From: Azolla caroliniana
Lineage: Eukaryota > Plantae > Polypodiophyta
DNA length: 64,000 nucleotides
Assembly: GCA_043228905.1 (NCBI GenBank)
Contig: JBHGNT010000008.1
Coordinates: 15,996,001 to 16,060,000 of the forward strand
Reading direction: 5' to 3'
The position numbers and the translations under genes are program-made. The notes beneath the pieces are model-generated. The model worked only from the letters and a program-made list of their open reading frames with translations. It did not search any database and was not told where the DNA came from. Below, piece after piece: positions 109-57,649 of the stretch; the first letter of the stretch is position 1, and each line of letters begins with the position of its first letter.

Positions 109-112
109 CAGT

Positions 113-130: not shown

Positions 131-146
131 AACGGGTGGCAAGGAG

Positions 147-6488: not shown

Positions 6489-7019
6489 GCGTTGTGGGCG
6501 TATCGTACGACTTTCAAAACAAGCATCCAATCAACCCCCTTTCGAATGGCGTTCGGGTTAGAAGCCATAATGCCCGTCGAGTTCCAAGTTCCGAGCCTCC
6601 GAGTTCAAATCACAGCACGGCTCCCCGAGGCCCTATCCGAGCAATACCGGCTGGAACAACTCCTCGAACTCGGCGAACATAGGATAGAGAGTATGGCCTA
6701 GCTCGAACAACGCCAACGGCAACGCAAGGCTTTCGTGGATCGACATCAACACGGGCTGGAAAAGGAGCTCACCATCGGCAAACCGGTTCTTCTTTTTCAA
6801 ACGCGACTCGGGTCTATGCCGGGAAAATTAAGATTTCGGTGGACCAATCCATTCTGGATTATCGACGAGTTCAACGGGATGTTCCAGCTCGGCACACTCG
6901 CCGGCGACACTGTCAAAAGCTGGGCCAATGGGTTCCGACTTCGACCATATCGAGGCACTACACCACCCAACCCGTTTCGGGAAATCACCATGGAGGAGGC
7001 CACGTGTCCCCCTCAATAA
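6489..7019 (+). pseudogene. G2 integrase C-terminus with an in-frame stop
   Basis: LWAYRTTFKT..PFRMAFG..MPVEF and KLRFRWT.PF closely match the G3 integrase. Confidence 0.9.
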
Positions 7020-7543
7020 GGACTCACCCACCTTCTTGAAATTAATAAAAGTAGTAGTAGGTAGGATTAACCATAGTTTAGCCACCGATTAGCTACAGCT
7101 ACACCACCCACCTAGGCACCCACAAATTTAGGAGCACCCCTCGCCACCACTCATTTAGTACCTATTTAAGCACATGCAAAGCACTGGAAGCACCCCACTT
7201 ACCTTCAGGACACGTGGTGTTAGTCACTTATTATCACACCCACGACTCAGAATCTTTAGGATTCGCTTCAGGCACAAAACCCTAGGAGTAAGTTACTAAA
7301 ACCGTTTCCAAAACGCAGCACAGACGCAGAAGTTCATTATCACTCCCAATCTCCATCGCTCTCAAGCTCAGAAACCCCGTCTCGCTCTCATCGCTATAAA
7401 CGCTCTTGCTCTCAAGCCCTCTTTCGCTCTCATAACCCCTCTACTGAACTTCCCCTTCCTGCTGTTCCTCCTCTGTCTCGCCCTCGCCTCATCACTCTTC
7501 TTCACATTTCCACACAGTCAAACCCCGTCTCCATCTCCACCAG

Positions 7544-10500
7544 GCCTCTTACCACTTCAATAGAAACCCGCGCCTGGCTCCAGGAATGAGGAATGGGCGG
7601 TTACCTGAAGATCATCGATGCCCCCGCGCACCCAGATGCCCAAGGTGTGGCCAAACGTATTTGTCCCGAAGCCATCACCAACAACGTGCTTTGGGTTGTT
7701 TTGGAACTGCAACGGGGAGGGGACCATGAGGTCGACCTACCCCCGGCATCGAAGATGAAAGCGTACTTCGGTGAGTACTCAGCCTCAGGGAAAGCATATC
7801 GCACGTATGGCGATCCCAACAGAGCTTTCGGGGAGATTGCTCGTATATTAATGGAGTATGCGTTCGTGCATACGAACCCAACGAGCATGCCGCAGAACAA
7901 GGCAGCCATCATCATCAGCGCGTATGAAGGAAATAGAATCGATTGGGAATCATCACAGGCGAAGGACTCCGTACCGTCTTAGCTTCATTTCAGTTCGGTA
8001 AGAAGATGTTGTCTGTTCTTACCCACTTTTTGATGGTTCTATACCCACCCTCTTCTCTTCCTGCCCCTCGCACACTCACGTCCCCACCACCACCACGAAG
8101 GAAGAAAGAGAAATTCGTTGCCATCAGCCACGAAGCATGGGAGGAGCCCACATCACCTCCACCTCCTGCCGCCGACCAAAACCCCGCATCTACAACACCA
8201 CCCACCCAACCCCAACAAAAAAGGGCAGTTTCCGAGACCTGCCAAGAATGGGAGGAGGAGGTAGCCATGGAGGACAACACGGCAGATGATGTCACCATTC
8301 GACAGCCAACGTCGCACCCCTCGGTAACTTCCCTAGGGCCTAGCCCATGCCCCAACACACAGCAGGCTGCACCACCACGACCCTAGAAAAGGAAGCAGGC
8401 GGAGGAAACGACACTACCGGCCCCGGAACCCCAAACACAGCCGAGCAAGAGAAGACGACTCAACCGCGAGTTCTCGGAAGAATAGAAAGAGCCACAACAG
8501 GAGCAAGCCTTAGTTGTCAGACAGAGCAACCTGGCCATCATCCCTGAGGAGGCATCGCTGAACTAGGGAAAGATCGAGCATGGGCAGACAACGCAGATCT
8601 CGGAGGATGAAGTCCTCGGGTATAAAGACCCCCCCGCGGAGGCTTACGAATTTAGTGCGCTCCTACGCCTCGGTACGACATTCGAGCTGGTCGACTTCCT
8701 CGCTAGAGCCCAAGTCGCGGCAGCTGCTCCAATGGCGGAAGAGCACGCCGAAACAAAAATGATTCAACGCGCGCTAATAGGTGAAATTGAGCCCCAGGAG
8801 GACAGGGCTTTACAAAAAATCGGGAGAAAGAAGCAAGCAAAACAAGCCGCTCTCCTCATGGAGGTCCCCGAGTTGAACACGGCCCTTATCGAGGCATATA
8901 GGAACTTGGATCGCACTATGCGGGCAGCCAAAGACATGGCCCGAAAGATAAAAATAGCCCAAAAACAGGATAAGATGGCTACAGAATTATGGCACGCTGC
9001 GAAACAGAAGCTGGCAGCCTAGGAGCAAAACCGGCCGGAACAACAACTCTTGAGCCTTCCGACCACGACCACCGAGGCCCTCCCAGCCCCTCCACGCATA
9101 ACAATGATGGATGAAAGCACCGTCACAGTTTCAATCCTGACGATGCAGGCCAGTACACAAACGGACTCGTTACAAATGGTCGATGCCTGCACAACAACCG
9201 AGGCGGCCACGCCCATGGAGAAGACCGAGATACCACCCCCTCGTGCACCCAAGGAGGTGGCAACCCATACAGAACCCCCGCTTCGGGATTACCGCGCGGA
9301 GCTTAAAGAAGAACAACGGCGAACCGAGAGACACAAACAACGGCATCAGGAGGCGATGGATCGCCTAAAAGAAGAAGCTTCCAAGCAGATGGCCGAGATT
9401 AGAGACCAGGCCGGCCAAAGGATACACGAGCAGAACGAAGCACTGGGCCGGTTACAAGCGCAAGCCGCGGGCAAAGAAGCCGAACTCAAAAGAAAGCTGG
9501 AGGAATACGCAGCCACAGTGGCAAAGAAAGAGAAGGAGGTCCTAGACCTACAGGTCGCGCTCGACAATGCAAAAGACTGGAACCATCGGCAGGAGGAAAG
9601 AAATCGCGAACGGGAGGAGAGAATGATCGCGGAGAATGCCGAGCTGTAGAGTCAGCGTACGACCCTTAAAGAAATGGCTGACGAGTTTTTCATCAAATGC
9701 AAGCTACTTTCAGAGCAAAAAGACGAATTATCGGATTCCTACTTCGCCCTACAAGAAGAGAAAATCGTCAAACGGGAACAAGTCCGGGCCGCGTGTCAAA
9801 AAGAATGGGAGCAAGCCACCGAAGAACTCACCAAGCATTACGAGCAGGCTATCCAGCTCATAACTGTAGAAGCAAAGAACACTCAAGCCCTCTATGAACT
9901 ACGAGCAAAGAAACTTCAGGCCGAGGTCGACGGCTTAAAACAAGAATTAGCAGTCATCCGAGCACAGCCCGGCATGGATGAGACACGCATCAGAATACTG
10001 ATCGAGAAACAACGCCAGCACCTTACCAAAAAGGTCGAGGAAACATTAAGTCGCGCAGGAGACAAATGGGCAGCCCAAGCTGCTGAATTGCATATTTTAC
10101 TCGCCGACGCCGAGAACCGACGGAAGGAGGGTCGCGGCTTCTACAAAATAGACGAAGCCAGCATACAAAACCTGCGTGCAGATTTAACCGAGGATTACCA
10201 GTCCTTGGCAAAATCTCACACCGCGGCAATCGAGCAAATAATGGAGGACTTCAATGACGGTCAGATGCTGTTTCGCCTGGAAGCAGAAGCCTTCGAACGA
10301 GAACGACTCACAGCCATCCCAACCAGCCCTCCAACAGCCACAGAGCAGAAGGAAGAACCTTCCAGCAAGGAGATCACGAACACGGCACAGGAGGAACTTG
10401 CCCCGGCCAACAGACATCCCATGGACGCCCACACGGTACCAGATCCAATCGAAGTAGAGATCAGCGCCCTCGAACCCACACCCCCACCAGAAGAATCGGC

Positions 10501-10636
10501 CGTAGTTGAGGCGGACGCCCGAGAAGATATGACACCCCCGGACCAAACTCAACCCCCCGCACTAATAGTCCAACTAGACCACCCTGCCACCACCCCGGAC
10601 CCCGAAAACATCCTCGACATCTTAAAAGAGGAATGA
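7544..10636 (+). pseudogene. G2 extra 3' ORF (coiled-coil protein), broken by stops and frameshifts
   Basis: Fragments 7593-7982, 7943-8386, 8732-9022, 9050-9649 and 9674-10636. Shares YFGEYS...KAYRT, AYEG..ID, QAAEL..L.ADAENR.K and LDIL.E with the G3 extra ORF. Confidence 0.85.
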
Positions 10637-10734
10637 AATGAGGATCACGCCTAAAAGGCAATTTTTGTAATATTGTTAGTATTTTGTAAGTCGTGGGTCC
10701 GACGGACAAGGTCCTGTCCCACGGGTGTGCTAGG

Positions 10735-11195
10735 TGTTGTCCAGAGGACAGAAATGTAAAATTAGGAAATTAGCAAACGCCGAGTCCGAGTATCACGGGC
10801 CACCGACGGCTCGGCTGTGTATTAGGGGAAAAGTTATTTAAACGAGGACTAGTACCTCAGAGGAGGGGGGAGAAGAAAAATATAGGCGGAAGCACTAGCT
10901 GAGCCCCTCGTAACTAGATAATCTTGTAAGGTCACCGGCCGTAGGCCGTGTTCTGTAATCTTTTCTGTCGCAATAATATATCTGAATTGTGCCCAGTTTC
11001 CTCCATGTGTCCGTGCTTTGATTCATACCTATGATTTGAGCGCCGCCCACGCCTGCCAAGATCTCGTTAGTGTTTTCTCTCTGAGCACTGTCTCTCTCTC
11101 GACGCCTCTGTTATGAGCCTTCACGTACCACGCCCTTGAATACCGATAGCCGCAGATCTATCGAAGGTGTTCACCCAAAGAAACAGGTAACAACA
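10735..11195 (+). repeat. G2 3' LTR (about 461 bp)
   Basis: Start placed by aligning the upstream motif with the G3 3' LTR boundary; terminal inverted repeat TGTTGT/ACAACA. The partner LTR is not in the window. Confidence 0.7.
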
Positions 11196-19789: not shown

Positions 19790-19943
19790 CCCCGTGGGAC
19801 TTAATGTGTCAGACCGATGTTGTGTGCCGATTTAATAGATTGTACTCACACCGCTGCATTGTGTGTGACCAAGAGTGGCACAACATGCATTGAGTCCGCA
19901 TTGTACATTCCAGGGTAGAGTGGTCGGGGTTGAGGCCTGTTGT
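19790..19943 (-). pseudogene. G5 gag zinc-knuckle segment (left of the G3 insertion)
   Basis: The minus strand translates LNPDHSTLECTMRTQCMLCHSWSHTMQRCEYNLLNR, homologous to G3 Gag LNSGHSTVDCTLRTQCVICNSRAHTTDRCEYNLLNR. Confidence 0.9.
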
Positions 19944-20330
19944 TGTTGGCCGGTCAGAAGAGCAAGGACAAGTGGGAAGGCGGAATCGGATCGGATAATA
20001 GGAAGTAATAGTAGAATTATTATTCGGAGGGACGGATTCGGTACAGTTGTACCGATCCGGATCCGAACCGATTCGGATGTCGGTTGCCTAAGCGCACCGA
20101 TTGTAACCTTGCCGGATGCCTATAAAAGGATCCGATGATTTGTAAAGTGTTTTTGACGGAAGTAATACAATAGTAATTATTGTGTATTTATCTGTATCTT
20201 GTATTGTTTGCTGTCCGTGCTTAATCGTAATCATCTTATGCGTGTAACCTAGCATCCAATCCTTACCACCCCTTTGGAGAAGTGTCGGGTAGACACCTGT
20301 GTTGAGGCTAGTCCAGCCAGACAGACAACA
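19944..20330 (+). repeat. G3 5' LTR
   Basis: Direct repeat of 29686-30058; TATAAAA near 20121. Confidence 0.97.
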
Positions 20331-20336
20331 CTATTT

Positions 20337-20347
20337 TGGCGACCACG
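20337..20347 (+). promoter_or_regulatory. G3 PBS, probably tRNA-Arg
   Basis: TGGCGACCACG lies 6 nt after the LTR and is complementary to the ..GUGGUCGCCA end of tRNA-Arg(UCG). Confidence 0.75.
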
Positions 20348-20382
20348 ATTCCTGCAAAGTGCAGAGGACAACCGGGGGATGG

Positions 20383-23300: not shown

Positions 23301-26300
23301 AAAAGCATCCCAACTCGAGGAGGTGGACCTCGGCACAGCAGACAAGCCCCGACCGGTAAATGTTGCAAAGGAGTTGCCGAAGGAAGAAAAGAAGGCAATG
23401 GTAGCATTGTTAACAGACTTCAAGGATGTGTTCGCGTGGTCGTACGAAGACATGCGAGGACTGGACCCCCAGCTCTATCAGCACCAAATTCACCTAAGTA
23501 CGGACGCGAAACCGATTGCTCAACGCAGATACCGGATGAATCCGAATTATGCGGCAAAGGTGAAGGAGGAAATTGATAAGCTCCTCCGGGTCGGATTTAT
23601 CCGACCGGTCAAGCAGGCAACCTGGCTGAGTCCGATAGTGGTGGTCCCGAAAAAGAACGGAAAAATCCGGGTATGCGTGGACTACCGAAGACTAAATGCC
23701 GCAACAGTGACCGATGCGTTTCCACTACCATTTACGGACGGGGTGTTAGATGCGGTAGCTGGGCACGAAGTTTACAGCTTCCTGGATGGATTTAGCGGCT
23801 ACAACCAAATACAAATGAACCTGGCCGACCAAGAGAAGACAGCGTTCGTGACGGAATGGGGAGTGTTCGTCGCGGTCGTGATGATGTTCGGACTAAAGAC
23901 GGCTCCAGCGACCTTTCAAAGGATAATAATGGCAATTTTTGGGGAATATATCCCCGGTTTTATGCAGGTCTTCCTTGACGATTTCGCGGTCTACAGCCGG
24001 CACGGAGAGCATCTCGATCACCTCCGACTGTGCTTGGAGAAGTGCCGCGAGTACCAATTGAGCCTGAATCCGGCCAAGTGCGTCTTTGGAGTGGCAAGTG
24101 GCAACTTGCTAGGGCATGTGGTGAGTAAGGAAGGAATCGCGGTAGATCCGGATAAAGTCAAGGCGATTCTCGATGCACCAGCACCAAGTAACGCAAAGGC
24201 TTTAAGCCGGTTCCTGGACCAAATAAGGTGGCATAGCCAGATGATACGGCACCTCGCGGACTTCGCTACACCGTTACATACCGCCGTACATAGGGTACCC
24301 TTCCTATGGGCAGAGACGGAGGAGGAAGCCTACAAAGCGTTGAAGGTCATGCTGTCGCAAGCTCCGGTGGTGCAACCGCCGGATTGGAGTAAAAGCTTTC
24401 ACGTCTTCGTCGACGCGTCGGACATAGCAATCGGCAGCGTTCTGATGCAACTCACAGAGCCGAAATGGTACCGACCGGTGTACTACGCAAGCCGGAAACT
24501 CTCAAAAGCCGAACGGAATTACTCTACGACGGAACGCGAGGCATTGGGAATGGTGTATAGTGTCACAAAGTACAGGCACTATCTGCTCGGAAGGAAGTTT
24601 TCCTTCCATGTCGACCATTCGGCAGTACTCTACCTGGTCTCGAAGGCATCCCTGACGGGACAAATTGCACGGTGGACACTGCTACTACAGGAATTTGAAT
24701 TCGACATTTTCCACCGACCCGGGGCGCAGCATGCAGTTGCGGACTATCTAAGCAGACTTGAATCCGGAGAAGCAGGGGACGGCGTCCAGGATGAGTTTCC
24801 CGACGCCGAATTGTTCCGGATCACGATGAAACCGGCAACGGATACAACGGTAGCCGACGAAGACACATGGCTAACTGAGATGCACCAGTTCCTGAGCACC
24901 GGAGTTCCCCCGGACAACATGGACCGCGATGAAAGGAAAAGGGTAGCAGTAAGAAGTAGACATTTCTGCTTGGTTGGAGACACCCTTTATCACAAGGGGG
25001 CAGATGGCATCTGGAGACGAGCAGTGCGGAGCGATGAGAAGGATCTAATCCTCAGGGAAGCCCACTGTGGAATTGCTGGCGGGCATTATGCCGGCGACGC
25101 AACCGCTCGGAAAATATGGCAGAGCGGACTGTGGTGGCCGACCACCCTAAAAGATACCGTGAAGTATAGCAGAGAATGCGATTTGTGTCAACGACTGGGC
25201 CAACCCACAGAGCAGGCCCGGATGCCACACCACCCGGTCTTGCCCTTAGAACCGTTTCAAAAGTGGGGGTTGGACTTTGTCGGTCCCTTCAAACCACCGG
25301 CAATGCGAACCGGAAATCGGTATGTCATAGTGGCGACCGACTATTGCACCAAATGGGTAGAAGCAAAGGCCTTACGGGACAACACGGCCGCTTCCACGGC
25401 AAAGTTTCTGTACGAATGCATATGGTGCCGGTATGGATGTCCGATCGAGCTTATAAGTGACCAAGGAGGACATTTTCTCGGGCAGGTAGTAGAAAGCCTG
25501 ACGTCATTTTACGCGGTGGTACATAAAAAGAGTACACCCTACTACCCTCAAGCCAATGGACTAGCGGAATCAACGAACAAAACTCTGCAGAACATCCTAC
25601 GAAAAATCGTCAACGAGAACCGGACCGACTGGGATACGAAATTGCAAAGCGCGCTATGGGCGTACCGAACAACGTACAAAACCAGCATCCGGACAACCCC
25701 GTTCCGACTAGCATTCAGATTAGAAGCGGTCATGCCGGTAGAGTTCCAGATCCCCAGCTTACGGATTCAGGTAAAGGAGCGCTTAAGTGAGAACGAGTCC
25801 GAACGAATCCGACTGGCAACGCTGTTGGAATTAGAGGAAAACCGAATAGCCAGCTTACTACAACTCGAACTGGAGCAAAGGAGGAGAAAAGCCTTCGTGG
25901 ACCGACACCGGCGTGGCAATGAAAAGGAGTTCGAAGTCGGGAAACCGGTGCTACTATTCCAGACAAGGATGGGGAACATGCCGGGAAAGTTGCGGTTTCG
26001 ATGGACCGGACCGTTCTGGATCACCAAGGAGTACAATGGGTCGTATCAGCTCGGCACGTTGTCTGGAGATGTCATCGGCAAGTGGGCAAATGGATTTCGG
26101 CTAAAGCCGTATAAAGGAAATATGCCAGCCAACCCGTTCAAGCGAAACCCGGAAATCCGGCAAGATGAGGAACCGACACCGACAGACGCTGCTGAAGACA
26201 TTCAGACCGAGGAAGAACCGACACCAATACTGACGAGGACCATCCCGGAAAACCGACAGAAGGATCCGGTATCCACACGAACCGACCCGAACAAAGCGGG

Positions 26301-26316
26301 GGGGACCAGCAAATGA
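20383..26316 (+). CDS. gag-pol: G3 Gag-Pol polyprotein (Gag, three Cys/His knuckles, PR, RT, RNase H, IN), uninterrupted, about 1977 aa
   Basis: Protease IIDGGSGVNVI. RT LDGFSGYNQI, MMFGL and FLDD. RNase H VDAS..YYASRKL..YSTTEREAL. Integrase HHCC, WGLD, SDQG, NGLAE and GPF. Confidence 0.97.
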   Translation: MSKPNDDHITERGRRYTEREQRREALQQAVDEIRRDRSFSKTLRRVTEEALQFWVLQIPDEGSSITSLQEAETILQTLAAGDGDSEAFATLEAESESDGSVASRYKSSHDTPNDREDEGSEDSVTPAPEEEITLEFGDRQPPRKADRIPTTTAREPKERIPTTPAEEPTDRTPATPAEEPKVLKPTPTADRERREQESQLDDTMPYPYPKYRDEADAEAHVYAFLQTWEANHISQRLTEPEAERSKIAEFGITLEGPAAQWHAKHLPGTFATFDALKARFLRFFHRQFEQRELVGQFYTTRQEENETMPQFIIRFQTLHSQLTRAPPEDEAKAVFLAALKEPLRTMCGVLDFQTSTMDQVIDRVLEMDKTSPFLSMGMLHRALPKEEDPRFRQALQCTTCLNSGHSTVDCTLRTQCVICNSRAHTTDRCEYNLLNRQAAPVRHIEPRNQNPDEDRFRRDDRYQRERGNRYADRRCDNYDREERRRDSYPRDRYDRDESPEDDRRGEERRQGYADRRRDNYDREERRKDSYPRDRYNRDGAPEYDRRREERQQGNRNFRRNQKRGFFRREERREAARNDNPVSVPDNRKTEDDRRSIPTLQTGDKGETSNGHKVYCYYCRKEGHYSNQCPSKSYDKQPEVNMVIAEITEVQQVTTRSKGKTVEWEAQEAIRKQATQWIKEANEQNAAEVRDQNMSKDEEIIHPGENPTWQALQDCQIVLPLARLLQLVPRFTADLQASVSKPKPTPAPAFFSNPEEGPAVVDTSSPAITTIVKGKEIVGTIIDGGSGVNVISQQTCNDLGIREWEPCPFWLRMADTSSVRPTGLIRDLEIMIGGHVFRISAMVLQLNVQGAYPLLLGRPWLRTAHIKQNWQKNMITFRRGKTKVRVTTQPRVITSKEATPLYAESINMLEGLPDEEVERYLEEHPRIVPLFEVDITAAVEPYITTPEEPDQAAIRELRQAQEFLEREMTISQRVKASQLEEVDLGTADKPRPVNVAKELPKEEKKAMVALLTDFKDVFAWSYEDMRGLDPQLYQHQIHLSTDAKPIAQRRYRMNPNYAAKVKEEIDKLLRVGFIRPVKQATWLSPIVVVPKKNGKIRVCVDYRRLNAATVTDAFPLPFTDGVLDAVAGHEVYSFLDGFSGYNQIQMNLADQEKTAFVTEWGVFVAVVMMFGLKTAPATFQRIIMAIFGEYIPGFMQVFLDDFAVYSRHGEHLDHLRLCLEKCREYQLSLNPAKCVFGVASGNLLGHVVSKEGIAVDPDKVKAILDAPAPSNAKALSRFLDQIRWHSQMIRHLADFATPLHTAVHRVPFLWAETEEEAYKALKVMLSQAPVVQPPDWSKSFHVFVDASDIAIGSVLMQLTEPKWYRPVYYASRKLSKAERNYSTTEREALGMVYSVTKYRHYLLGRKFSFHVDHSAVLYLVSKASLTGQIARWTLLLQEFEFDIFHRPGAQHAVADYLSRLESGEAGDGVQDEFPDAELFRITMKPATDTTVADEDTWLTEMHQFLSTGVPPDNMDRDERKRVAVRSRHFCLVGDTLYHKGADGIWRRAVRSDEKDLILREAHCGIAGGHYAGDATARKIWQSGLWWPTTLKDTVKYSRECDLCQRLGQPTEQARMPHHPVLPLEPFQKWGLDFVGPFKPPAMRTGNRYVIVATDYCTKWVEAKALRDNTAASTAKFLYECIWCRYGCPIELISDQGGHFLGQVVESLTSFYAVVHKKSTPYYPQANGLAESTNKTLQNILRKIVNENRTDWDTKLQSALWAYRTTYKTSIRTTPFRLAFRLEAVMPVEFQIPSLRIQVKERLSENESERIRLATLLELEENRIASLLQLELEQRRRKAFVDRHRRGNEKEFEVGKPVLLFQTRMGNMPGKLRFRWTGPFWITKEYNGSYQLGTLSGDVIGKWANGFRLKPYKGNMPANPFKRNPEIRQDEEPTPTDAAEDIQTEEEPTPILTRTIPENRQKDPVSTRTDPNKAGGTSK
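20820..20927 (+). repeat. 3 x 36-bp coding repeat in the G3 Gag N-terminus
   Basis: DRIPTTTAREPK / ERIPTTPAEEPT / DRTPATPAEEPK. Confidence 0.85.
21789..22040 (+). repeat. 2 x 126-bp coding repeat (Arg/Asp/Glu-rich) in G3 Gag
   Basis: YADRR.DNYDREERR.DSYPRDRY.RD..PE.DRR.EER.QG occurs twice. Confidence 0.9.
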
Positions 26317-26731
26317 CGTGGTCCAAGAAAGAAAGAAAGAAAAAAAAAAAAAAAAAAACGTGGGCAGAATCGACGCGAATCATCGTAATGATGGGGAGAT
26401 CACAAGAGGTGGGAGCACCACCATGCAACGAAGAGGCGCCATGCATGAAAGAAGGACGTGTGCGGACTTGCTATTTAAAGCAGGGAACGTGGGCACTCAC
26501 ACGCGGCAAACAAGAAAGGACATACTAATTATGGCGGGAGAGGAACATGCGCGGGAAACGAAAAAGGACGGCTCGAGGCACAACCCACTATATAAGACAC
26601 AGGCCTGCGAAGGGCTCACGTTTTACGAATTTTCCTACATACAGGCGCAGAAGCACAGAAGAGCGACCCGACGCACAGAGCACACACAGCGCGATCCCGA
26701 ACACCAGGCAGCAGACGAAGAATTCGAAGCA

Positions 26732-29635
26732 ATGGTACTGTCGGAAGTGGCACGCCAATGGATGAGGGAAAACGGGTTAAAAGGCTTGCTGCGGATCGCC
26801 GACGCTCCACCACACGCAGAACCAGAGCAGGCGGCAGCATCGATCGATATATCAGAAGTCACGGAAGGAGCGGTGCAGGCACTCATGGGGATCAAAGCAG
26901 GAGGACTGCAAACAATCGAAAACCCTTCCAGTGAAATCCTGTTCGAATATTTCGGGGAATACTCTATCAGCAACAAGGCGTACCGAACGCAAGGCGGAGA
27001 GAACCTGCTGTTCGGAGAAGTGGCCCGCGCTATGATGGAATACGGATTTGTGAATCCCCGTCCCCCAGCCATAGCCAAGTATCGGGCAGCATTCTTGATA
27101 GCAGCGTACGAGGGCTTACAAATAGACTAGCTCCATTTCATAACCGAAGGATTGAAGGAGGCCATCAAAAATCTGGTGGAAGGAAAAAAGCCATGGGCCG
27201 GGATAGCACAATGGCTAACGGTGTTAGTCCCACCGGTACTCCCCATCACACAAAAGAAAAGAGGTCAGCAGGAGACGACGCCGAAAAAGGTCACAAAGCG
27301 CCGACAGATCTTGGAGAAACACACCCCCGGATGGACCCCGCAAGAAGCAGAACAGCAGGGGGAAGGACCATCCCGACAGCAACAGGAACCGGCAATAAAG
27401 GCAAAACCGGCAGGTAAAGGCAAAGGGAAAGCGGCCGAGGAGGAACCGGTAGCGCGCAAACCAATCCATATAACGCTGCGATGGCCGGAACCGGAACCAG
27501 AGGTCTCTAGACAAAAGGTCCGTCTGGTAACCGCACCGGAGGAGGAAACTGAAACAGAAGACTCATCCGAACCACTGGTAAGACTCCCAGCAAGACAAGG
27601 TCGGGAGAAACGGGCGAAAGGACCGGCTCCACCAGTGGACAGAACTCAGCAGAGGGCGCAAGGACCATCTCCAGTAGCCGAGGCGGAAACAGCACCGGAA
27701 CCCGTACCCAGGGAAGCAGCACCGACACCGGTTGGGCCGGACTTCAGAAAACCGGTCATCCCAGAGAAGAAGAAGGAACGAGCACCGGAGCCGGAGCCAG
27801 AGAATAGGCCGGAAAATCAGCCTGGCTTAAGTGAGCAAGGCCACCCCGAAATCGGAAGAACAAAGCCACAATGGCTGAGATGGCTTTCGGAGCAGTTATC
27901 GGGAGTAGCGGACCAGTTAGAGAAAGAAGAAACGTGTAGGCAATAGCTGACGCATACAACAACTCAGGAGTTGGTCGCGCTCCGAACACAGATCGAGGAA
28001 ATGCAAGGGGAGCTGTTGCAGGCAAGGGAAGGAATTCAACAAGCACAAGCTGTCACCGAGCCAGTCGGGACAACAAGGAAGCAACCAGAACCGGAACCGG
28101 AACCGGTAGCCTTGCAAACCGGCCCTGAGACCGAAAAAATAATAGAAACCTTACGAGAGGAGTTACAAGCTCAGGAGGCATTAAGGGAAAGAGAAAGGGA
28201 GCAGCGGAAAGCGGTGGAGGATGACAGACGAAAAATGGAAGAAGGCCTCCGGAAAGGTCGAGCCGCTAATGACCGACTGCAAGAAGAAAAAGAGAAGCTG
28301 CAGAAGGAGAAGGACCGACTACGTCGACATGCCGAACAAGAGATAGAACGACTGCAGGAAGAACTCCGACAACAGAAGGACCGGGACGATCGGTTAAGAG
28401 CTCAGGCAACCCGACGCCTGAAGCAGAAGACGGAGGACTTCGACCGTCTCTACCGAGATCACAAGCAGGCCGAGTCGGACAACAAAAAACGAGCAGCAGA
28501 CTACGACCAGCAAATAGAGAAGCTGAAAGAGCAGCTCAAAGAGACCCGATTAGACCTGGCTAAGGCGATGGATGAGGTCAGTGCCAACAAGGAAGCATTG
28601 TCGGCGGAAATAGCCCAAGCAACGGAGAGAAGGAAGGAATTAGAGGCGCTAAGGCGGGAAAAGCTGGACCTGACCAAGATCAAGAATGAAGAAAAGGAAA
28701 AATCGACCTTCACGATCAGCAAACTGCAGAGTACCTATGAAAAGCAGAAAGCAGATTACGAGGCCCAGGCTCAGATAATGGCCGACATTATAAAACGGGC
28801 AAGGAAGGAAAAGCAGGAAGCTTATGCGCATGCTAAGGCAGGAGTTGACCGGATCAAGCTCATCATGTCAGGATGGAGTACCCGAGCTCAGGCAAGTATC
28901 AACGAAAGTACGGAAAAGCTATGGAAGGAGTGGTCACAACAGGCAGCCGAGCTGCAGACACTCCGAGCGGATGCCGAGAATCGGAAGAAGACCGGCGACA
29001 GGTTCTACAAGATGGATGAAGAAAGTATCGTCGCCATTCGGGAGGAATTGTCGGAGGATTTCTACACTTTAGCAGAAGAACACCTCAAAGAAATCCGAGG
29101 GTTGGTAGAGAGGTTGGATGACGGGCAGCTCGCAACTCAGTTGGAGTTGGAGAGATACGAGCAGGACCGGTTACGACAGGAAGCTAAGGGAAGAACGACG
29201 CCAACCACTATTGGTGAGGGAACGCGACCGGCGGAAGATGAACCAACCGACACCGAACAACCCCGACGAGGAATACCTGAAGACGAACTTGAAGAAGAGC
29301 AGGAGCGGACCGATGCCGGAGAAGAAGAAGAGCTGAGACCGGAAGACACCAGAGCAGAGGAAGGAGGCATATCAAGTCGACCAGTCGAGACCGGAGAAAG
29401 CGACACCGGTAACAGAACAGAGCCAGAAACGGAGGGAGAACAGGAAGAACCCGGACGAAGCAGTGAGGAAGCACCGGCACCACGGAATCAAGCAGAGCCG
29501 GAGCAGAAAATTTTTATGGAACAGCCTACCCAACAGGAGGTCGGAGACCAGGCAGGCAAGGAACAGGAACAGGAGGAAGAAGCACCACTTGACACTATCG
29601 AGCAAAGTGTGCTCGATATTTTGGAGGAAGACTGA
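26732..29635 (+). pseudogene. G3 extra 3' ORF (about 967 codons: globular N-domain, Pro/Glu linker, long coiled coil, acidic tail) with two in-frame TAG stops
   Basis: Track ORFs 26318-27130, 27152-27946 and 27971-29635 share one frame and are homologous to the G2 extra ORF. The start ATG is inferred. Confidence 0.85.
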
Positions 29636-29685
29636 GGCCGGGAGTGGATTCGAAGTGCAAGGCACTTTCCCACGGGCGTGCCATG

Positions 29686-30058
29686 TGTTGGCCGGTCAGA
29701 AGAGCAAGGACAAGTGGGAAGGCGGAATCGGATCGGATAATAGGAAGTAATAGTAGAATTATTATTCAGAGGGACGGATTCGGTACAGTTGTACCGATCC
29801 GGATCCGAACCGATTCGGATGTCGGTTGCCTAAGCGCACCAATTGTAACCTTGCCGGATGCCTATAAAAGGATCCGATGATTTGTAAAGTGTTTTGTAAA
29901 GTAATTATTGTGTATTTATCTGTATCTTGTATTGTTTGCCGTCCGTGCTTAATCGTAATCATCTTATGCGTGTAACCTAGCATCCAATCCTTACCACCCC
30001 TTTGGAGAAGTGTCGGGTAGACACCTGTGTTGAGGCTAGTCCAGCCAGACAGACAACA
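29686..30058 (+). repeat. G3 3' LTR
   Basis: Direct repeat of 19944-20330, followed by TSD GTTGT. Confidence 0.97.
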
Positions 30059-31280
30059 GTTGTGCCCTGCACTGCCTGTGCAAATTGCAGGTCTTCTGCT
30101 CTGGGCAACTCTCATTGTAGAGCCCCCATTGCCATGTAATTACTATTTTAGGCCTTATCCATTTCCCGCACCCGATCGGTGACTTCATCCATGGTGCTGG
30201 TCCTGAAGTCCAACATTGAGAGCATTGTCCAGAGCGGCTCCTAGAGCACGACCAAAAAGACTGCTTTTGCCTCATCCTCTAGAGGTGCCCTTGTAAGCTG
30301 ACTATGCAGTGTCTGGAATTGGATGATGAATTGTGGGACTCTTTCGTTGGGTTCCTGATATACCGTATAAAATTGTCCAACGAGCTACTGTTGCTCCACC
30401 TGTCGGTGAAATAGTCGCAACAATTTATCCCGTAGGACTTCAAATGTGGCGAAGTTACCTGGAAGATGCTTTGCGTGCCATCTCGCCACTGGTCCCTCCA
30501 GGTCATGCTGAATTCCGCAATTTTTGACCGCTCTACTCCTTCGTCCGTTAGTCGTTGTGAAACATGGTTGGCTTCCCATGTTTGCAAAAAGGTGTATACG
30601 TGTGCCCCTGCATCCAGTTCATCTTTGTACTTTGGGTACGTGTACGACATGTTGTCATTGTCTACCGGTCATTCCGATGATGGCATCAGTACACGATTGT
30701 CCTTCTTATTCGATTTTTGGTCCGGTGGTGGTGTCGGTATGCGACCGTTTATCTTCTCCGATTGCGTTCCAGATTCTCCTCGTGCGCCAATGGTGTTGTC
30801 ATTTCTGACTCCGGTGTTGGTATGTGCTCATATCTGTCTTCCTCTGGTGTGACTGGATCGTTAGTTGGAGTGGAGGTTGTGTTCGCTATCCGACTCCGAC
30901 TCAAATGCTGAAAATGCTTTCGTGTCCTCGGCACCTGTGGCTAGGGTTCACAGTATAAATTCTTCGTCTGAATTGCTGCCTTCGTCTGAATGTCGTTGAA
31001 TTTGCAACTAGACTGTCTCCTTCGCGACCCATCGAATCTCTTTGGGAAAAGAACGATATCGTCGAATCTCCTCGTCCATCTATTGGTAGGCCTCCCACCT
31101 TTGCAGTCTCTCGGCTAGTCTTCTCGCTCATTCAGTAATTGGGTCATTCATCAGTCTAGTCATCCATTCCCCGTCGTTCACTACACTTTGCTGGAATCGT
31201 GGTCGCCAAAACTTTGTTTACTTTGGGATGGCCATAGCCACAAACATAGGGACAGTCACCAAAGCCATGGTTAAGGGAAT
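30059..31280 (-). mobile_element. G5: 5' part (LTR end, PBS, decayed gag) of a G3-related gypsy element
   Basis: MSYTYPKYKDELDAGAHVYTFLQTWEANHVSQRLT matches G3 Gag. PBS TGGCGACCACG at 31198-31208 (minus strand). The LTR from 31215 is interrupted at 31280 by A1 and resumes at 63973. Confidence 0.9.
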
Positions 31281-41378: not shown

Positions 41379-42630
41379 GTTCGGAGTCTATGGGCTCCTA
41401 TGGTTTTTCCCATTTAGGGTTTTCCACGTAAACATCTTGTGTACTCTCTTTTGGTGTACGTGTAATCATCTCTATTCTCGTTTTTGTGTTTGATCATTAA
41501 ACGAAGTGATTCAAGACTTGGTTGTGGCCGAGCAATATTCCGCGCTATTCTCATCAAACTGGTATTAGAGCAAACAATACAGGAAATGGAAGAATCGTTC
41601 GGCGGCATGTTCAAGCTCATCGGCTCCAACTACTCAATGTGGAAGTCAAAGATGAGGGATATGTTGGTGGTTAAAGATCTTTGGTTGCCGGTTCAATTCG
41701 GGGGCAAGGGACCGGATAAGATCAACGCCATAGTGTGGGAGGTAACGCACATGAAGACGATGGCATACATTCGGTGCTTCATCGACATGAGCCTGTACAA
41801 TAGCTTCAATGAAGAAAGTAAGGCTCATGAACTCTAGGAGAAGATAGGCATCATGTTCCAGAACAAGAATGTTGTCAATCGGGTTTCGGTATTCTGAAAG
41901 CTAGTGAGGCTTCGGTACCAAGATGGCTCCTATATGGCAGAGCACATGAATTTCTTCAAGGGGCTAATACATGAAGCAACCTTGTTGGAAGTACCTCTCG
42001 CCGATGAGGTACTCACATTGCTTCTGCTCGGTTCCCTCCCGGATAGCTGGGAAACGTTAGTTGTCACGTTGGGTAATGTCGGGCCGGAAGTAAAGTAGTT
42101 GTCCCTAGCAAGGGTAAAATCAAGCTTGCTAGATGAAGAAGCTCACCGGAAGGACCGGGAGACCGGAACCAATCCAAAGGCCTTCGTCACGAAAGATGAC
42201 CATACCCGAGGAAGAGGCCGGTATCAGAGTCCCCAAAATCGGGACAAGTTGGGGACGAGGTCGAAGTCAAGGGCAGGCCTACTTGCTTCTACTACCCAAA
42301 CAGGGAAAAACCACGGCAGCCCATAGGCTGCAAACTATCACTATGTTAGGATGTACAACAGTGAGTTCACGGAGGCAACGACCTCGTGCTCACAATCTTC
42401 GCCACAGGCGGCGGTTACAACAGAGGCAACGACCTCTTTCTCTCTCTCTCTCTGTACACAATTACACGCTCTCTCTCTCCTTGCACCAAGAAGAATGACA
42501 ACTACTATAAAAGTTTGCCCTAAGTCATATTTATACTAATATGACTTTTCGGCTATTTACAAATATAGCCACGATGGACTCTCAGAAACATATTTACAAA
42601 TATGTCTCTTCATCCGGTGAGCATTCCTCA

Positions 42631-42840
42631 CCGGGTCTGCACCATCCGGCTCTCCGTAGTCGGGTACTCCTCATCCGGTTCCCACCGGGTCTGCACCATC
42701 CGGCTCTCCGTAGCCGGGTACTCCTCATCCGGTTCTCACGGGGTATGCACCATCCGGCTCTCCGTAGTCTGGTACTCCTCATCCGGTTCTCACCGGGTCT
42801 GCACCATCCGGCTCTCCGTAGCCGGGTACTCCCCATCCGG
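42631..42840. repeat. 54-bp tandem repeat, about 4 copies, in the B2 3' LTR
   Basis: Unit CCGGGTCTGCACCATCCGGCTCTCCGTAGCCGGGTACTCCTCATCCGGTTCTCA. Confidence 0.9.
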
Positions 42841-42869
42841 AGGGACCTGTCTCCCAACAAACTCCCCCT

Positions 42870-45800
42870 TCACTCCGGCATGGGGTGTCTTACCAGTCTG
42901 ATCCGCTTCCGGCATGCATCCAGCTTGTCAGGTATCAAAACTTTGGTCAGCATATCTGACCCGTTCTCGGCCGTGTGGATCTTCGTCGGCGTGAACTCCT
43001 GGTCATCTACTCTTTCCCGGATCCAGTGATACCTTCGCTAGATATGCTTCGTTCGGGAATGGTAGGCCGCATTCTTAGCAAGGTGGATGGCACTTTGACT
43101 GTCGCGATAGAGTCGGTATTCATCTTACCGGATACCGAGCTCTCCGATGAAGTCCTTCATCCATAAGATTTCCTTGCCGGCTTCCAGAGCTGCCATGTAC
43201 TCTGCCTCCGTGGTTGACAATGCAACCGTCTTCTGCAGTCTCGACTGCCATGAAACAGCTCCCCCTGCATATGTCATTACATACCCGGATGTAGACCGGC
43301 TGGTATCCACATCAGCCGATATGTCCGAATCGTTGAGGTTTTCCGGAGCTGAATCAGATACACATATTTGAAGTTCCCTTCAAATACCGGAGTATCCATT
43401 TGACTGCATTCCAGTGCTCCTTGTCGGGATTGCTCATGAACCAGCTCACCACTCCGACTGCGTATCCTATATTTGGTCGGGTGCACACCATTGCATACAT
43501 CAAGCTCCCAATGGCAGAGGCATATGGAATCTTCATCATATCCGCCTTCTCTGTTTTTGTCTTCGGGCTTTGCTTACCGGATAGCCTGCAGTTTGCCGGA
43601 AGTGTCGATCCGACCGGTTTCGCATCTGACATGTTGAACCGGTGAAGCACCTTTGTCATGTACTTCTCCTGTGACAGCCATAATTGCTTCGCTGACCGGT
43701 TCCGGATAATATGCATCCCCATCATCTGTCGTGCTGGACCCAAGTCTTTCATTGAGAAGGTCCGGTTGAGAGCCTTCTTCAGCATCCGTATTTTGACTTG
43801 GTCCCGTCCAACGATCAACATGTCATCCACATACAGAAGGAGTATTAGGAAATCGCCTCCTTCAAACTTCTTCACAAACACGGAGTGATCGGCCTGCGTC
43901 TTGTGGTACCCTTGATCAGTCATGAAGGAGTCGAACTTCCGGTACCATTGCCGGGGGGCCTGCTTCAACCCGTAGAGGCTATTCTTCAACCGGCATACCA
44001 GGTGCTCCTTCCCTTTCTCCACGAATCCTTCCGGTTGCTGCATGTAGATCTCCTCTTCGAGGTCTCCGTGAAGGAATGTCGTCTTCACGTCCAGCTGCTC
44101 TACCTCAAGGTTCATGCTTGCCGCTATACTCAGCACCGTCCGGATGGAGGTCATCTTTACAACCGGGGCAAATATCTCGTCAAAGTCCATGCCCTTTTTC
44201 TGTTGGAACCCCTTCACCGCGATCCTGGCTTTGTATCTCGGGGGGTTGCCGGCATCTCCTGGTTTCAACTTGTACACCCACTTGTTTCGGAGTGCCCGCT
44301 TTCCTTTCGGCAACTCCACCAATTTGTACGTATGGTTCTCATGCAGGGAATCCATCTCATCCTGCATGGCACTTAACCATTTGCGGTTGTGGGTGTCATC
44401 CTTCGCTTCTTCGAAACTTTCTGGCTCATCCTCATCGGTCAGCAGAACATGCTCTGCATCCGGAAATCTCCAGGGGGCCCTTCTCTCTCTGAGAGGATAT
44501 CTCCGTCTTCGGGCTTCCGTAACCGGTTCCTCCATTTGCTCTTCATCCGAATCCGATTCGGGGTCTTGGCCGGTTCCAGTCTCAGCTTCCTCTACTTCTT
44601 CTTCTGTCGGTTCAGTATCCTCACCGTAACCGGCTGGTTCCTCGAGTGCTAACCGGTCTCTTGCCGGTTGGGTCTGCTCATCGTAGAGTCTATCCTTACC
44701 GGTCGACTCGGAGTTCATTATCTTCTTCTTCGACTCCCAGTCGGCGAGCGTCTTGTCCTCCATGAAGATAATATCTCGACTCCGGGATACCTTCTTGTCC
44801 ACCAGGTCCAACACTCGGTAGCCGAACTCATCGTCACCGTAACCGAGGAATATGCATGCCCGGGTCTTTGGATCTAACTTTCCTCTCCGGTCCTTAGCTA
44901 CATGCACGTACGCGAGACACCCGAACACCATCAGATGCCGGTAGGACACTTCCTTACTGGTCCATACTCTCTGTGGCGTGTCTCCGTCCAAGGGTACTGA
45001 GGGTGATCTGTTTATCACATATGTCGTCGTCGACAGTGCCTCAGCCCAAAACTTCTTGGGTAGTTTTGCATGCGCGAGCATACTTCGGACCCTCTCCATT
45101 ATGGTCCGGTTCATCCTCTCGGCCAGTTCGTTTAGTTCCGGCGTCTTCGGCACGGTAAATTCGAGCCGGATTCCCTTCGAGCGACAGTACTCCTCGAACT
45201 GCCCCCGGTATTCACCTCCGTTATTTGCTCGAACCGCCATCAGCTTCCGGCCGGTTTCTCTTTCCACTCTCACGTGGAGCTCTTTGAACACGGATAACAC
45301 CTGATCCTTTGTCTTCAACGGTGTGGCCCACAGCTTTCAGCGGTGGTCATCTATGAACGTCACGAAGTACTGCGCTCCGGCATGTGACTTCGTGTCTACT
45401 TGACACACATCAATATGCACCAACTCCAGTGGTGCATTACATCTCATCGGTGGCCTTAGTCAAAAGGAGGTCCGGTTTTGCTTACTGGCTAGACAATCAG
45501 TGCACTTCTCCAAGTGCACATTCTTCACTGGAATGAGGTTGTCTTCTGCAAGCCTCTTCATCCCCTTCTCGCTCATGTGACACAGCTTCTTGTGCCACAG
45601 CTCACCAGCAGTGTTGGATGCCACATTCACTTCTTCCGGACATAACCGGGCATTCATCAGGTACAGAGTGTTGACCTTCCGGGCCCGAGCCACAATCAGG
45701 CTCCCCTTGCTGAACTTCATGACACCGTTCCGGATGCTACCCGTGTAGCCTTCATCATCTAGCCGACCGGCTGATATCAGGTTTAGTCTAACCTCCGGAA

Positions 45801-46902: not shown

Positions 46903-47398
46903 TTTTTGTGTCGTTTCGCTCTAATACCACTTGATGGGAACTCAACGCTCCTTATGCACAACGCTCGGCCACAACCGAGCTTAGAATCATGCACAGAAAA
47001 CGGGAAATAATGAACGACACGAAGAAGAGACGAGTACACAGGATGTTTACGTGGAAAACCCAAACAAGGAAAAACCACGGCAGCCCACAGGCTGCAAACT
47101 ATCACTATGTTAGAATGTACAACAGTGAGTTCACGGAGGCAATGACCTCGTGCTCACAATCTTCGCCATAGGCAGTGGTTACAACCGAGGCAACGACCTC
47201 TTTCTCTCTCTCTCTCTCTCTGTACACAGTTACATGCTCTCTCTCTCCTTGGACCAACAAGAATGACAACTACTATAAAAGTTTTCCCTAAGTCATATTT
47301 ATACTAATATGACTTTTCGGCTATTTACAAATATAGCCACGATGGACTCTCAGAAACATATTTACGAATATGTCTCTTCATCCGGTGAGCATTCCTCA

Positions 47399-47690
47399 CC
47401 GGGTCTGCACCATCCGGCTCTCCGCAGCCGGGTACTCCCCACCCGGCTCTCCGTAGCCGGGTACTCCTCATCCGGTTCTCACCGGGTCTGCACCATCCGG
47501 CTCTCCGTAGCCGGGTACTCCTCATCCGGTTCTCATCGGGTCTGCACCATCCGGCTCTCCGTAGCCGGGTACTCCTAATCCGGTTCTCACCGGGTCTGCA
47601 CCATCCGGTTCTCCGTAGCCGGGTACTCCTCATCCGGCTCTCACCGGGTTTGCACCATCCGGCTCTCCGTAGCCGGGTACTCCCCATCCG
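47399..47690. repeat. 54-bp tandem repeat, about 5.4 copies, in the B2 5' LTR
   Basis: Same unit as 42631-42840. Confidence 0.9.
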
Positions 47691-47710
47691 GAGGGACCTG
47701 TCTCCCAACA

Positions 47711-50762: not shown

Positions 50763-52127
50763 AGGGGGAGATTGTTGGGAAATCAGTCCCTTCGGATGGG
50801 ATCCGGTTATGAATGGAGAGGACCTGGTGAGAACCGGAAGAGATCCGGAAACCAGATTGGTGGACCCGGTGAGAACCGGAAGAGAAGACATATTTGTAAA
50901 TATGTTTTGAATAAGCCTATTGAGGCTATATTTGTAAATAGTCCTAAGTTCATATAAGTATAAATATGACATAGGGCAATCACTTAATGTGTGTGTGAGT
51001 GTGGTTTTCATACTGTGTATAACTACTGTACACAGAGAGAGAGAGAGAGAGAGAGGAGATATAGAGTTATATTGTGTTGTAACCGCCGCTTGGCGAAGAA
51101 ACGGAGCTCGAGGTCATTGCCTCTGAGTTTCTGACTGTAGCTTTCTCATATAGTGTTAGTTCGAAGTCTGTAGGCTACCGTGGTTTTTCCCATTTAGGGT
51201 TTTCCACATAAACATCTTGTGTACTCTCTTTTGGTGTACATGTATTCATCTCTATTCTCCTTTTTGTGTTTGATCCTTAAACGAAGTGATTCAAGACTCG
51301 GTTGTGGCCGAGCAATATTCCGCACTATTCTCATCAACATGTTCATAAGTTTCCCTTTCTACCCGACATGGCTGAGGGAAACTTCTCGGACATGTTCGAT
51401 GGTATGCAGAGTGTCGTCTCCTGTTTTGACCACTCCTTGCTTTTCCAGTTTCTCCAAGTACGAGAACCATTCCTCATGACTCGTCATATGATTCGACGCT
51501 CCGGATTTAACATACCACACCTTGCTTGGTTTCTAGGTGTTCACGGCCATCGAATTGGCCTTGTGCTTCATTACGAAGGTTGGGCCTGATCCACTTCCGG
51601 GTTGTTCATAGCCCTCAGTGTAGTGCAAATTTTGACACCTTCCTATGTCTCTTCCACTCAATCTGGCTTTGTCCAAATCGGCTCTCTTCTTCCAGCACTC
51701 ACTCTCCCTGTGGCCTTTCTTGCCACAGTACCAACATTCCGTTACAGCCTTCTCTTGCTGGCTTCCGGCGCTGCTATGACTCCCCCTGCTTCCAGAGATT
51801 TTGGAATTGCTTCCGGCACTTCGATTATTCCGCACGTTCTGCTCTTTTTGGCCACCTCCATTGCGTGCTGATCCGCCTCGTCCGCCACGACCACGGGGCC
51901 TATCTTCCTCCGTGTACAACATCTTGTTGTCGGTGTGCGTACTCGTCGACGCACCCGCGTGATTTTGCTCTACGAGCAACATCAACTAAAGCTCGAAGAA
52001 TGAAGGCGTAATCTCCCTTGTGCAAACTGCCGTCCAGAATGCTCCGAACTTTGATGCTCACCCACTAAGACATGTTAGGAAACAGGTCCCTCCGGATGGG
52101 AAGTGAGAAGAACCGTGTTGATGAGAT

Positions 52128-52397
52128 TGTAAAGAATCAACGCTCCGATTCTCCTTCTCCACTCGGCCACCACCGAGTAATCGCGGATCAATGCAGCAGA
52201 AAATAGGAAATACAGAGAAAGACGCGATACACAGGGATTAACGTGGAAAACCCTATACGGGAAAAAACCACGGGAGTGCGAGACTCCAAACCAAACTATG
52301 CACAGAGAAATATACAGTGGCGAGCTGCAAGGCGACGACCTTGAGCTCGCTGTCCTCGCCACAGGCGGCGGTATTACACAGAGGCGTCGACCTCTTC

Positions 52398-52436
<39 letters not shown>

Positions 52437-57193: not shown

Positions 57194-57232
<39 letters not shown>

Positions 57233-57604: not shown

Positions 57605-57649
57605 ATGAGCAACTCGGCCGAGGCCGAATCCGGATGTTGCAGACCCGGT

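What the first reader, a model, noticed from the sequence alone, without database searches (positions are those of the whole stretch)
29642..29685. No polypurine tract: a covarying 44-nt stem-loop sits directly before the 3' LTR of G3 (and G2)
Seen: the G3 LTR boundary is fixed by the LTR pair and the TSD, yet the bases upstream are not purine-rich. They align without gaps to the same position in divergent G2, whose LTR is unrelated: G3 GAGTGGATTC-GAAGTGC-AAG-GCACTTTC-CCACGGGCGTGCCATG|TGTTG versus G2 TCGTGGGTCC-GACGGAC-AAG-GTCCTGTC-CCACGGGTGTGCTAGG|TGTTG. Both fold into an AAG-triloop stem with a single bulged T and three compensatory pair changes (G-C/A-T, T-A/G-C, A-T/C-G). An outer GTGG/CCAC stem closes it, followed by a 12-nt GGGYGTGCYAKG tail. 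Established: LTR elements normally prime the plus strand from a PPT at exactly this position. Inference: this lineage may define its plus-strand primer with a structured RNA, or use the structure for packaging or circularisation.
Basis: partly seen in the sequence, partly recalled or inferred. Interest (0 to 1): 0.8.

Follow-up and report, generated by a model that had tools for sequence, protein, structure and literature searches.

The report
tRNA arm replaces retrotransposon polypurine tract
A branch of plant jumping genes has no purine tract where such elements normally start their second DNA strand and carries there a conserved copy of a tRNA's 3' arm split by a small hairpin, so a host tRNA likely primes that strand too, a route my literature searches did not find described.

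Summary
In detail: Ty3/gypsy element G3 (LTRs 19944-20330 and 29686-30058, 5-bp TSD) and divergent G2 have no polypurine tract (PPT) and share a 44-nt block. A pattern scan gave 101 more matches, 94 of identical length, with unrelated flanks. The 4-bp core hairpin covaries. The AAG loop and the third pair are not conserved, and folding energies are unremarkable.

Its last 10 nt are the exact reverse complement of the primer-binding site (PBS) of sister families. A distant relative found by protein alone (61% identity) also lacks a PPT and has the tail behind an unrelated hairpin. The 5' PBS takes three sequences while the tail stays fixed.

Best reading (0.55, inferred): a host tRNA anneals to minus-strand DNA at a bipartite site and primes the plus strand. 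Main rival (0.22): the element's own RNA acts as a tRNA mimic. The scan already reported this on other pieces of this genome, and those notes gave me the lead. Not tested biochemically; host tRNA gene not retrieved.

The parts
19944..20330 (+). G3 5' LTR, preceded by TSD GTTGT at 19939-19943
20337..20346 (+). G3 minus-strand PBS TGGCGACCAC, 6 nt after the LTR, followed by a small hairpin; differs from the complement of the 3' tail
   Evidence: same 10-mer after the LTR in L021, L045, L076
20293..26316 (+). G3 gag-pol, one open frame of 2007 aa (stop to stop): Gag, zinc knuckle, RT, RNase H, integrase; no chromodomain or second RNase H family hit
26234..29635 (+). G3 extra sense ORF (acidic, coiled-coil-like by eye), broken by two stops; no Pfam hit; ends 8 nt before the motif
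29644..29653 (+). tRNA-like T-stem 5' strand and T-loop (positions ~49-58); G3 has A where 95 of 96 copies have G
29654..29667 (+). 14-nt insert with the covarying hairpin (core 29655-29665: 4 bp plus 3-nt loop), at the tRNA 58/59 position
29668..29673 (+). tRNA-like positions 60-65 (T-stem 3' strand); one base (66) is missing after it compared with tRNA genes and with L104
29674..29683 (+). Acceptor strand plus CCA (GGGCGTGCCA), the exact reverse complement of the PBS of sister families
29684..29685 (+). 2-nt spacer between CCA and the LTR
29686..30058 (+). G3 3' LTR, followed by TSD GTTGT at 30059-30063
10693..10734 (+). G2 copy of the motif (CCA reads CTA in this copy) and its 2-nt spacer
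10735..11192 (+). G2 3' LTR; both ends inferred from sister loci, no partner LTR in the window
6489..10636 (+). G2 integrase tail and broken extra ORF, homologous to those of G3

Best explanation
The 40-nt block before the 3' LTR is a sense copy of a tRNA 3' arm that likely serves, on the minus-strand DNA, as a second primer-binding site from which a host tRNA would prime plus-strand synthesis in place of a PPT. Steps. (1, shown) The element lacks a PPT and carries tRNA-like positions 49-58, a hairpin, positions 60-76 without base 66, CCA, 2 nt, then the LTR's TG. (2, established for LTR elements) Minus-strand synthesis copies this region and RNase H removes the RNA. (3, inferred) A tRNA, probably Arg(UCU) (label partly recalled), pairs its 3' 16-17 nt and its T-arm 5' strand with the two flanks of the looped-out hairpin. 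This would be a bipartite site like the Ty1 PBS, broken at position 58/59, where m1A58 blocks pairing (recalled). (4, inferred) RT extends the CCA end through the spacer into U3; RNase H removes the tRNA; integrase trims the spacer as it does at the other end. Both DNA ends would then be made by the same tRNA-primed route.
For: CCA was left free in the pattern and is kept: C in 92 of 96 and A in 96 of 96 copies. T54 is kept in 92 of 96 and T60 in 95 of 96. ARAGORN-called tRNA genes L001-L004 show the same T-arm/acceptor/CCA layout with one extra base; L002 is called Arg(tct). Sister families have TGGCACGCCC directly after an LTR end in 11 loci (4 G2-type with 13 nt, 7 of a non-coding family), so the tail is the 3' end of a primer that this lineage uses. 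L104, found by RT-integrase protein without any motif bias, is a full element with 93% identical LTRs, no PPT, and CCACCAGGTGTGCCA-AG-TG behind an unrelated perfect hairpin. It matches 11 of 13 nt of the G2-type PBS complement (about 1e-5 per position, my arithmetic) and groups with G3 and G2-type L047 at SH-aLRT 99. The 5' PBS takes three sequences (G3-type, G2-type, L104) while the tail stays the same, which points to an outside partner. Cofold of the L002 arm with the minus strand gives the predicted three-way junction: net -25.6 (G3), -31.1 (L005), -29.4 kcal/mol (L006), against -6.6 for the G3 motif with its own PBS (RNA parameters and a phage tRNA as stand-ins). The commonest T-arm change (T55 to C, 35 of 96) and G3's G53 to A keep a wobble with tRNA on the minus strand; G53 to A breaks the self-stem. 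Elements with no hit to G3/G1 pol or the extra ORFs keep LTR, PBS and motif. In the L045 family the spacer is 4 nt, like the 2-6 nt spacers at the PBS end.
Against: No cDNA or biochemical data. No host tRNA gene was retrieved. In HIV RT an RNA primer on a DNA template favours the RNase H orientation (PMC3185511, passages), and a tRNA/DNA hybrid is an RNase H substrate. The two T-stem arms fold on each other in the template and would have to open. Three of 96 copies (one family) have A at position 54, a mismatch to the tRNA. L104 keeps only about 6 nt of the T-arm 5' strand, has C61 to T, and cofolds at only -9.8. Hairpin wobbles do not favour the minus strand (12 G.T against 9 A.C). The collection copies were selected by the motif, and 98 of 99 loci come from one accession series. 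Only one motif-independent relative (L104) had a readable 3' junction.
Confidence: 0.55

Rival explanations
1. The element's own RNA is the primer. It folds back into a T-arm mimic, the 10-nt tail stays paired to minus DNA, and RNase H cuts after CCA. The product looks like a tRNA bound to a 10-nt PBS without needing one.
For: The 5' PBSs of this lineage are short (10-13 nt) and cofold with the T-arm left closed. Loss of base 66 would stack the T-stem on the hybrid. The A54 and C55 variants are T-loop variants; L003 has C55. Wobbles in the hairpin lean slightly to the plus strand (12 against 9). It needs only the usual RNase H-resistant-primer logic (PMC5371799, passages).
Against: An RNA primer is complementary to its own copy whatever its sequence, so long-term identity to one tRNA acceptor strand is not required. 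The fold is no more stable than shuffles. In L104 the T-stem is reduced to about 3 bp while the tail is kept. G3's G53 to A breaks the stem.
Confidence: 0.22
2. The block works in the RNA as a circularisation, dimerisation or packaging signal by pairing with the element's own 5' end, and the plus strand starts from a primer not recognisable in sequence.
For: In G2-type and non-coding families the tail is complementary to the family PBS (net -20.9 for L006, -15.7 for L104). Ty3 and Drosophila gypsy link their RNA ends through tRNA (PMC5371799 passages; PMC1635307 sections 19 and 22).
Against: G3-type PBSs pair poorly with the tail (net -6.6), yet the tail is unchanged. Pairing would block the PBS. 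No other primer candidate is conserved: a 9-purine run about 55 nt upstream in G3 is absent from G2. The tight 2-nt spacing to the LTR fits a primer end.
Confidence: 0.1
3. A tRNA end captured once by an RT error now serves as an ordinary G-rich PPT substitute, and the T-arm and hairpin are passengers or minor helpers.
For: The tail is G-rich. PPTs share no consensus and can hold a pyrimidine (PMC3185511, passages). Athila PPT junctions are conserved in 97% of elements (10.64898/2026.03.20.713144, passages), so conservation alone does not prove an outside partner.
Against: The T-arm half and a hairpin of fixed size are kept across clades about one substitution per site apart, with roughly five independent double changes (read by eye from the tree). 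Only 8-9 of the last 15 nt are purines.
Confidence: 0.08

Closest known systems
Athila (non-chromovirus|OTA|Athila; Neumann et al. 2019, PMC6317226, section 9, passages and supplement 5 read; ATHILAfinder 10.64898/2026.03.20.713144, passages)
   Same: GAG-PROT-RT-RH-INT in one frame, no chromodomain or aRH hit, 5-bp TSD, size 10.1 kb within 7.3-22.8 kb, extra 3' ORF, short AT-rich spacer before the PBS. Angiosperm relatives are about 40% identical in RT-integrase.
   Different: Athila PBSs are mainly Asp/Asn/Ala, and Brassicaceae Athila have a conserved PPT junction. Here the PBSs differ and there is no PPT. G3's clade is separate from the angiosperm group in the RT-RNase H tree.
Ty1 and Ty3 bipartite PBS (PMC5371799, passages)
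   Same: The tRNA acceptor end and T-arm pair with two separate segments; in Ty1 they are split by a small internal loop.
   Different: Those sites lie on the genomic RNA and prime the minus strand, and both elements use a PPT. Here the site is on the opposite strand at the PPT position.
Drosophila gypsy 5' and 3' PBSs (PMC1635307, abstract, sections 19 and 22)
   Same: A second tRNA-related site near the 3' end of a Ty3/gypsy element.
   Different: That site is antisense to the anticodon/T stems on the RNA, bridges the RNA ends and is not needed for cDNA synthesis. This one is a sense copy of the CCA end abutting the LTR.
Conserved Hairpin Site of fungal GalEa copia elements (PMC5445492, passages)
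   Same: A conserved hairpin stands where a primer signal is expected and is shared by families with divergent flanks.
   Different: It replaces the PBS at the 5' end in copia elements and has no reported tRNA likeness.

Membership tests
Ty3/gypsy LTR retrotransposon | LTR pair with TG...CA ends and TSD | tested here: met
Ty3/gypsy LTR retrotransposon | Domain order Gag-RT-RNase H-integrase | tested here: met
Ty3/gypsy LTR retrotransposon | PPT directly upstream of the 3' LTR (usual, not strictly defining) | tested here: not met
Athila (OTA) | No chromodomain and no additional RNase H | tested here: met
   no such Pfam hit in the 2007-aa frame
Athila (OTA) | 5-bp TSD, long internal region with extra ORF | tested here: met
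   supplement 5 of PMC6317226
Athila (OTA) | PBS for tRNA-Asp/Asn/Ala | tested here: not met
   G3 PBS differs from the Asp/Asn PBS quoted; Arg label recalled
Athila (OTA) | RT groups inside the REXdb Athila clade | tested here: inconclusive
   no REXdb references available; G3's clade lies among bryophyte-like hits including Riccia, apart from the angiosperm group
Phygy / Selgy | 4-bp TSD, polyprotein spanning nearly the whole interior | tested here: not met
   5-bp TSD and 3.4 kb after pol
tRNA 3' arm (positions 49-76) | T-stem, T-loop, acceptor strand and CCA in register | tested here: met
   matches the layout of L001-L004 except for a 14-nt insert and one missing base; not detected by Rfam or ARAGORN
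tRNA 3' arm (positions 49-76) | Identity to a host tRNA-Arg(UCU) gene | not testable with these tools
   no genome held; no plant tRNA sequence found; phage L002 is Arg(tct), but L001 (Glu) and L003/L004 (Pyl calls) share the layout
Functional plus-strand primer site | Plus-strand DNA starts at this junction | not testable with these tools
   needs cDNA end mapping

The most novel reading that the evidence does not exclude
A clade of land-plant Ty3/gypsy elements has abolished the PPT and primes both DNA strands with host tRNAs, using a bipartite, hairpin-split binding site displayed on the minus-strand DNA. Its reverse transcriptase would start plus-strand synthesis from a tRNA:DNA three-way junction.
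Probability: 0.55. Interest if true: 0.9.

Novelty: new variant of a known kind. Interest (0 to 1): 0.8.

Why it matters
PPT priming is treated as general for retroviruses and LTR retrotransposons (PMC5371799, PMC3185511, passages), while the known exceptions concern the minus strand (self-priming, half-tRNA, CHS). A recently mobile, high-copy lineage without a PPT would be a natural test of what makes a plus-strand primer and of how RT avoids destroying an RNA primer on DNA. The two leading models give different, sequenceable products, so the question is directly testable. Annotation tools that require a PPT would also undercount such elements (inference).

Tried and rejected
No whole genome is held for the window, so there was no genome-wide, protein-selected count. 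Rfam found nothing in the window or around the motif at E<=10. ARAGORN found no tRNA gene in the window, in 99 motif loci, in 44 protein loci or in the L104 contig. Viral contigs held no relative by protein. The narrow read-laying gave no per-site variant table. No RNA holder was listed.

Rows dropped or set aside: L062 (49 nt, other collection, no LTR context) was judged a chance match. The six 45-nt copies were left out of the pair counts. L156 is a bacterial gene; L148 looked bacterial (GC 0.67) and did not hold my junction pattern; L149, L155 and L158-L163 were not read and occur at about the control rate. Of 44 protein-found loci, 15 were screened for LTR pairs. Part of that output was cut; pairs were seen in L104, L140 and L145. 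L140 and L145 (31-33% identity, outside the clade) have purine tracts.

The covariance model built from the 40 haplotypes barely sees L104 (E 1.5), so that link rests on the tail, its position and the tree. A hidden PPT upstream was rejected because it is not conserved. Ribozyme or HBV-epsilon-like readings were considered from recall and dropped: no Rfam match, and the tRNA layout explains the invariant bases.

Literature: searches listed no report of a tRNA copy at the PPT position. The library lacks most subscription papers. Neumann's additional files 1 and 3 were too large to read and may list such elements; the supplement of PMC5605234 was unreadable; bioRxiv supplements are closed.

Full report
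Setting. The window is a nest of LTR retrotransposons. G3 is a Ty3/gypsy element of 10.1 kb: LTRs 19944-20330 and 29686-30058 (95.6% identical), TSD GTTGT, one open gag-pol frame of 2007 aa and a broken extra ORF ending 8 nt before the motif. G2 is a relative whose 5' part is cut off by G1. The closest named relatives over the whole RT-integrase query are from the liverwort Riccia (43-46% identity); angiosperm proteins are at about 40%. A non-seed land plant is therefore inferred. No genome is held.

Observation. Both 44-mers are as quoted. There is no PPT in 102 of 102 copies of 44-45 nt (8-9 purines in the last 15 nt, longest run 3-4), whereas G1 and the copia elements at 42294-42859 and 52124-52809 in the same window have purine tracts. 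The fold of single copies is not better than shuffles. A pattern that left the 15 middle bases, two T-loop bases and the four bases before TG free found 101 matches in 99 metagenome loci; 94 are 44 nt long, 6 are 45 nt, and 1 (L062) is a chance hit. Ninety-eight loci come from one accession series, so they are many families but not independent samples. Flanks between families are 21-30% identical and the free motif positions 56-81%. Logan contigs pile up on the motif in all runs laid.

Covariation. On 40 distinct 44-mers, 96.6% of cells pair (shuffles 87.6 +/- 1.0, slid controls 34-56%; relatedness is not removed by the shuffle). Pairs 13-21 and 14-20 carry the signal. On a tree of the extra-ORF DNA of 40 copies I read by eye one double change at 13-21, about three at 14-20 and one or two at 11-24. 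Pair 11-24 is broken in 7 of 40, and the loop varies. The real structure is a 4-bp hairpin of fixed size.

What it is. Notes from the scan suggested a tRNA end, and I tested this. (a) ARAGORN-called phage tRNA genes have the same layout, T-stem, T-loop, T-stem, acceptor strand, CCA, with one base more and without the insert. (b) The free positions keep the tRNA letters: CCA (92 and 96 of 96), T54 (92 of 96), T60 (95 of 96). (c) In 11 loci the reverse complement of the tail, TGGCACGCCC, lies directly after an LTR end as a PBS. In four G2-type loci it extends to 13 nt and shows the base missing from the motif. These loci also fix the G2-type LTR termini. (d) G3-type elements use another PBS but the same tail. 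(e) A protein search of genome contigs, blind to the motif, returned L104 (61% identity), a full element with a third PBS, no PPT, and a 15-nt tail with CCA ending 2 nt before the LTR, behind an unrelated perfect hairpin. Its flanks do not form a clean TSD. L104, G3 and G2-type L047 share a clade with SH-aLRT 99 (quick tree). More distant L140 and L145 have purine tracts. The Arg(UCU) label rests on L002 and on recall; the host gene was not obtained.

Mechanism. Read on the minus strand, the block is a PBS. Cofolding with the L002 arm as a stand-in gives 10 bp + bulge + 6 bp and 10 bp around the looped-out hairpin (net -26 to -31 kcal/mol for G3, L005, L006; -9.8 for L104, RNA parameters). This resembles the Ty1 bipartite PBS (PMC5371799, passages) moved to the other strand. 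I put host-tRNA priming at 0.55. Against it: RT tends to bind RNA primers on DNA in the cleaving orientation (PMC3185511, passages); one family mismatches at position 54; L104 keeps little of the T-arm; hairpin wobbles do not favour the minus strand (12 G.T, 9 A.C). The own-RNA mimic model (0.22) explains the self-complementary T-stem and the missing base, but not why the tail keeps to one tRNA while the PBS changes. Circularisation (0.10) fails in G3-type elements (net -6.6). A plain G-rich primer (0.08) leaves the T-arm half and the hairpin unexplained.

Known systems and novelty. The element is a non-chromovirus Ty3/gypsy, Athila-like in build but not in PBS or PPT, and not Phygy/Selgy by TSD and layout. 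Drosophila gypsy's second PBS is antisense and dispensable for cDNA. The GalEa hairpin replaces the PBS, not the PPT. Searches listed no description of this arrangement, within an open-access library and at the level of search listings. At least ten earlier scan notes report the same feature on other pieces of this genome. They are not independent evidence; my score rests on the tests above. Papers seen: PMC6317226 (passages, section 9, supplement 5), PMC5371799, PMC3185511, PMC5445492, PMC5381547, 10.64898/2026.03.20.713144 and 10.1101/2022.12.06.519325 (passages), PMC1635307 (abstract, sections 19 and 22), PMC5389709 and PMC7339384 (supplement searches, no hits), PMC5605234 (nothing readable).

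Verdict. A real, conserved feature, better explained as a tRNA 3' arm than as a free-standing stem-loop. New variant of a known kind; interest 0.8.

Noticed in passing
window 20337-20375; L006:oriented 5516, L024, L057, L071, L021: The 5' PBS of G3- and G2-type elements is followed by about 6 nt, a small hairpin and often GAAC, the same order as the 3' motif read on the minus strand. Cofolding did not use the GAAC, so this mirror layout is only a hint.
   Followed up: partly
L010, L014, L015, L028, L032, L063, L067: Units of about 2.5 kb with no hit to G3/G1 pol or the extra ORFs (longest stop-free frame 133 aa in L028), arranged motif-LTR-PBS-interior-motif-LTR, as tandem arrays sharing LTRs or as collapsed assemblies. 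Both internal ends show the same tRNA 10-mer, inverted.
   Followed up: partly
window 30154-31211 and 19804-19943 (minus strand): G3 sits inside a related element in the opposite orientation, with the same PBS at about 31199-31208. Its 3' junction was not found.
   Followed up: partly
window 52124-57605 (minus strand): Copia element with LTR segments 100% identical over 686 bp and a 1370-aa open frame: a very recent insertion. Related copia LTRs carry 54-bp tandem repeats (42573-42913, 47370-47764).
   Followed up: no
window 26234-29635 and 7569-10636: Large sense extra ORF without a Pfam match; 11 homologues found, all from one source type; conserved acidic end of the form LDIL(E/K)E(E/D). 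L104 instead has a pol frame extended to 2444 aa.
   Followed up: partly
L104:15835-16812: A 325-aa open frame runs through the hairpin and tRNA tail into the 3' LTR. The contig with this plant-type element lies in a bacterial genome bin, likely contamination.
   Followed up: no
window 48-6494: G1, a distant gypsy lineage (26% RT identity to G3, DUF4100 in Gag) with an ordinary purine tract before 5779, inserted into G2.
   Followed up: partly
L138:1-22217: Kilobases of a short tandem repeat (period about 32 bp) surround a gypsy pol fragment.
   Followed up: no
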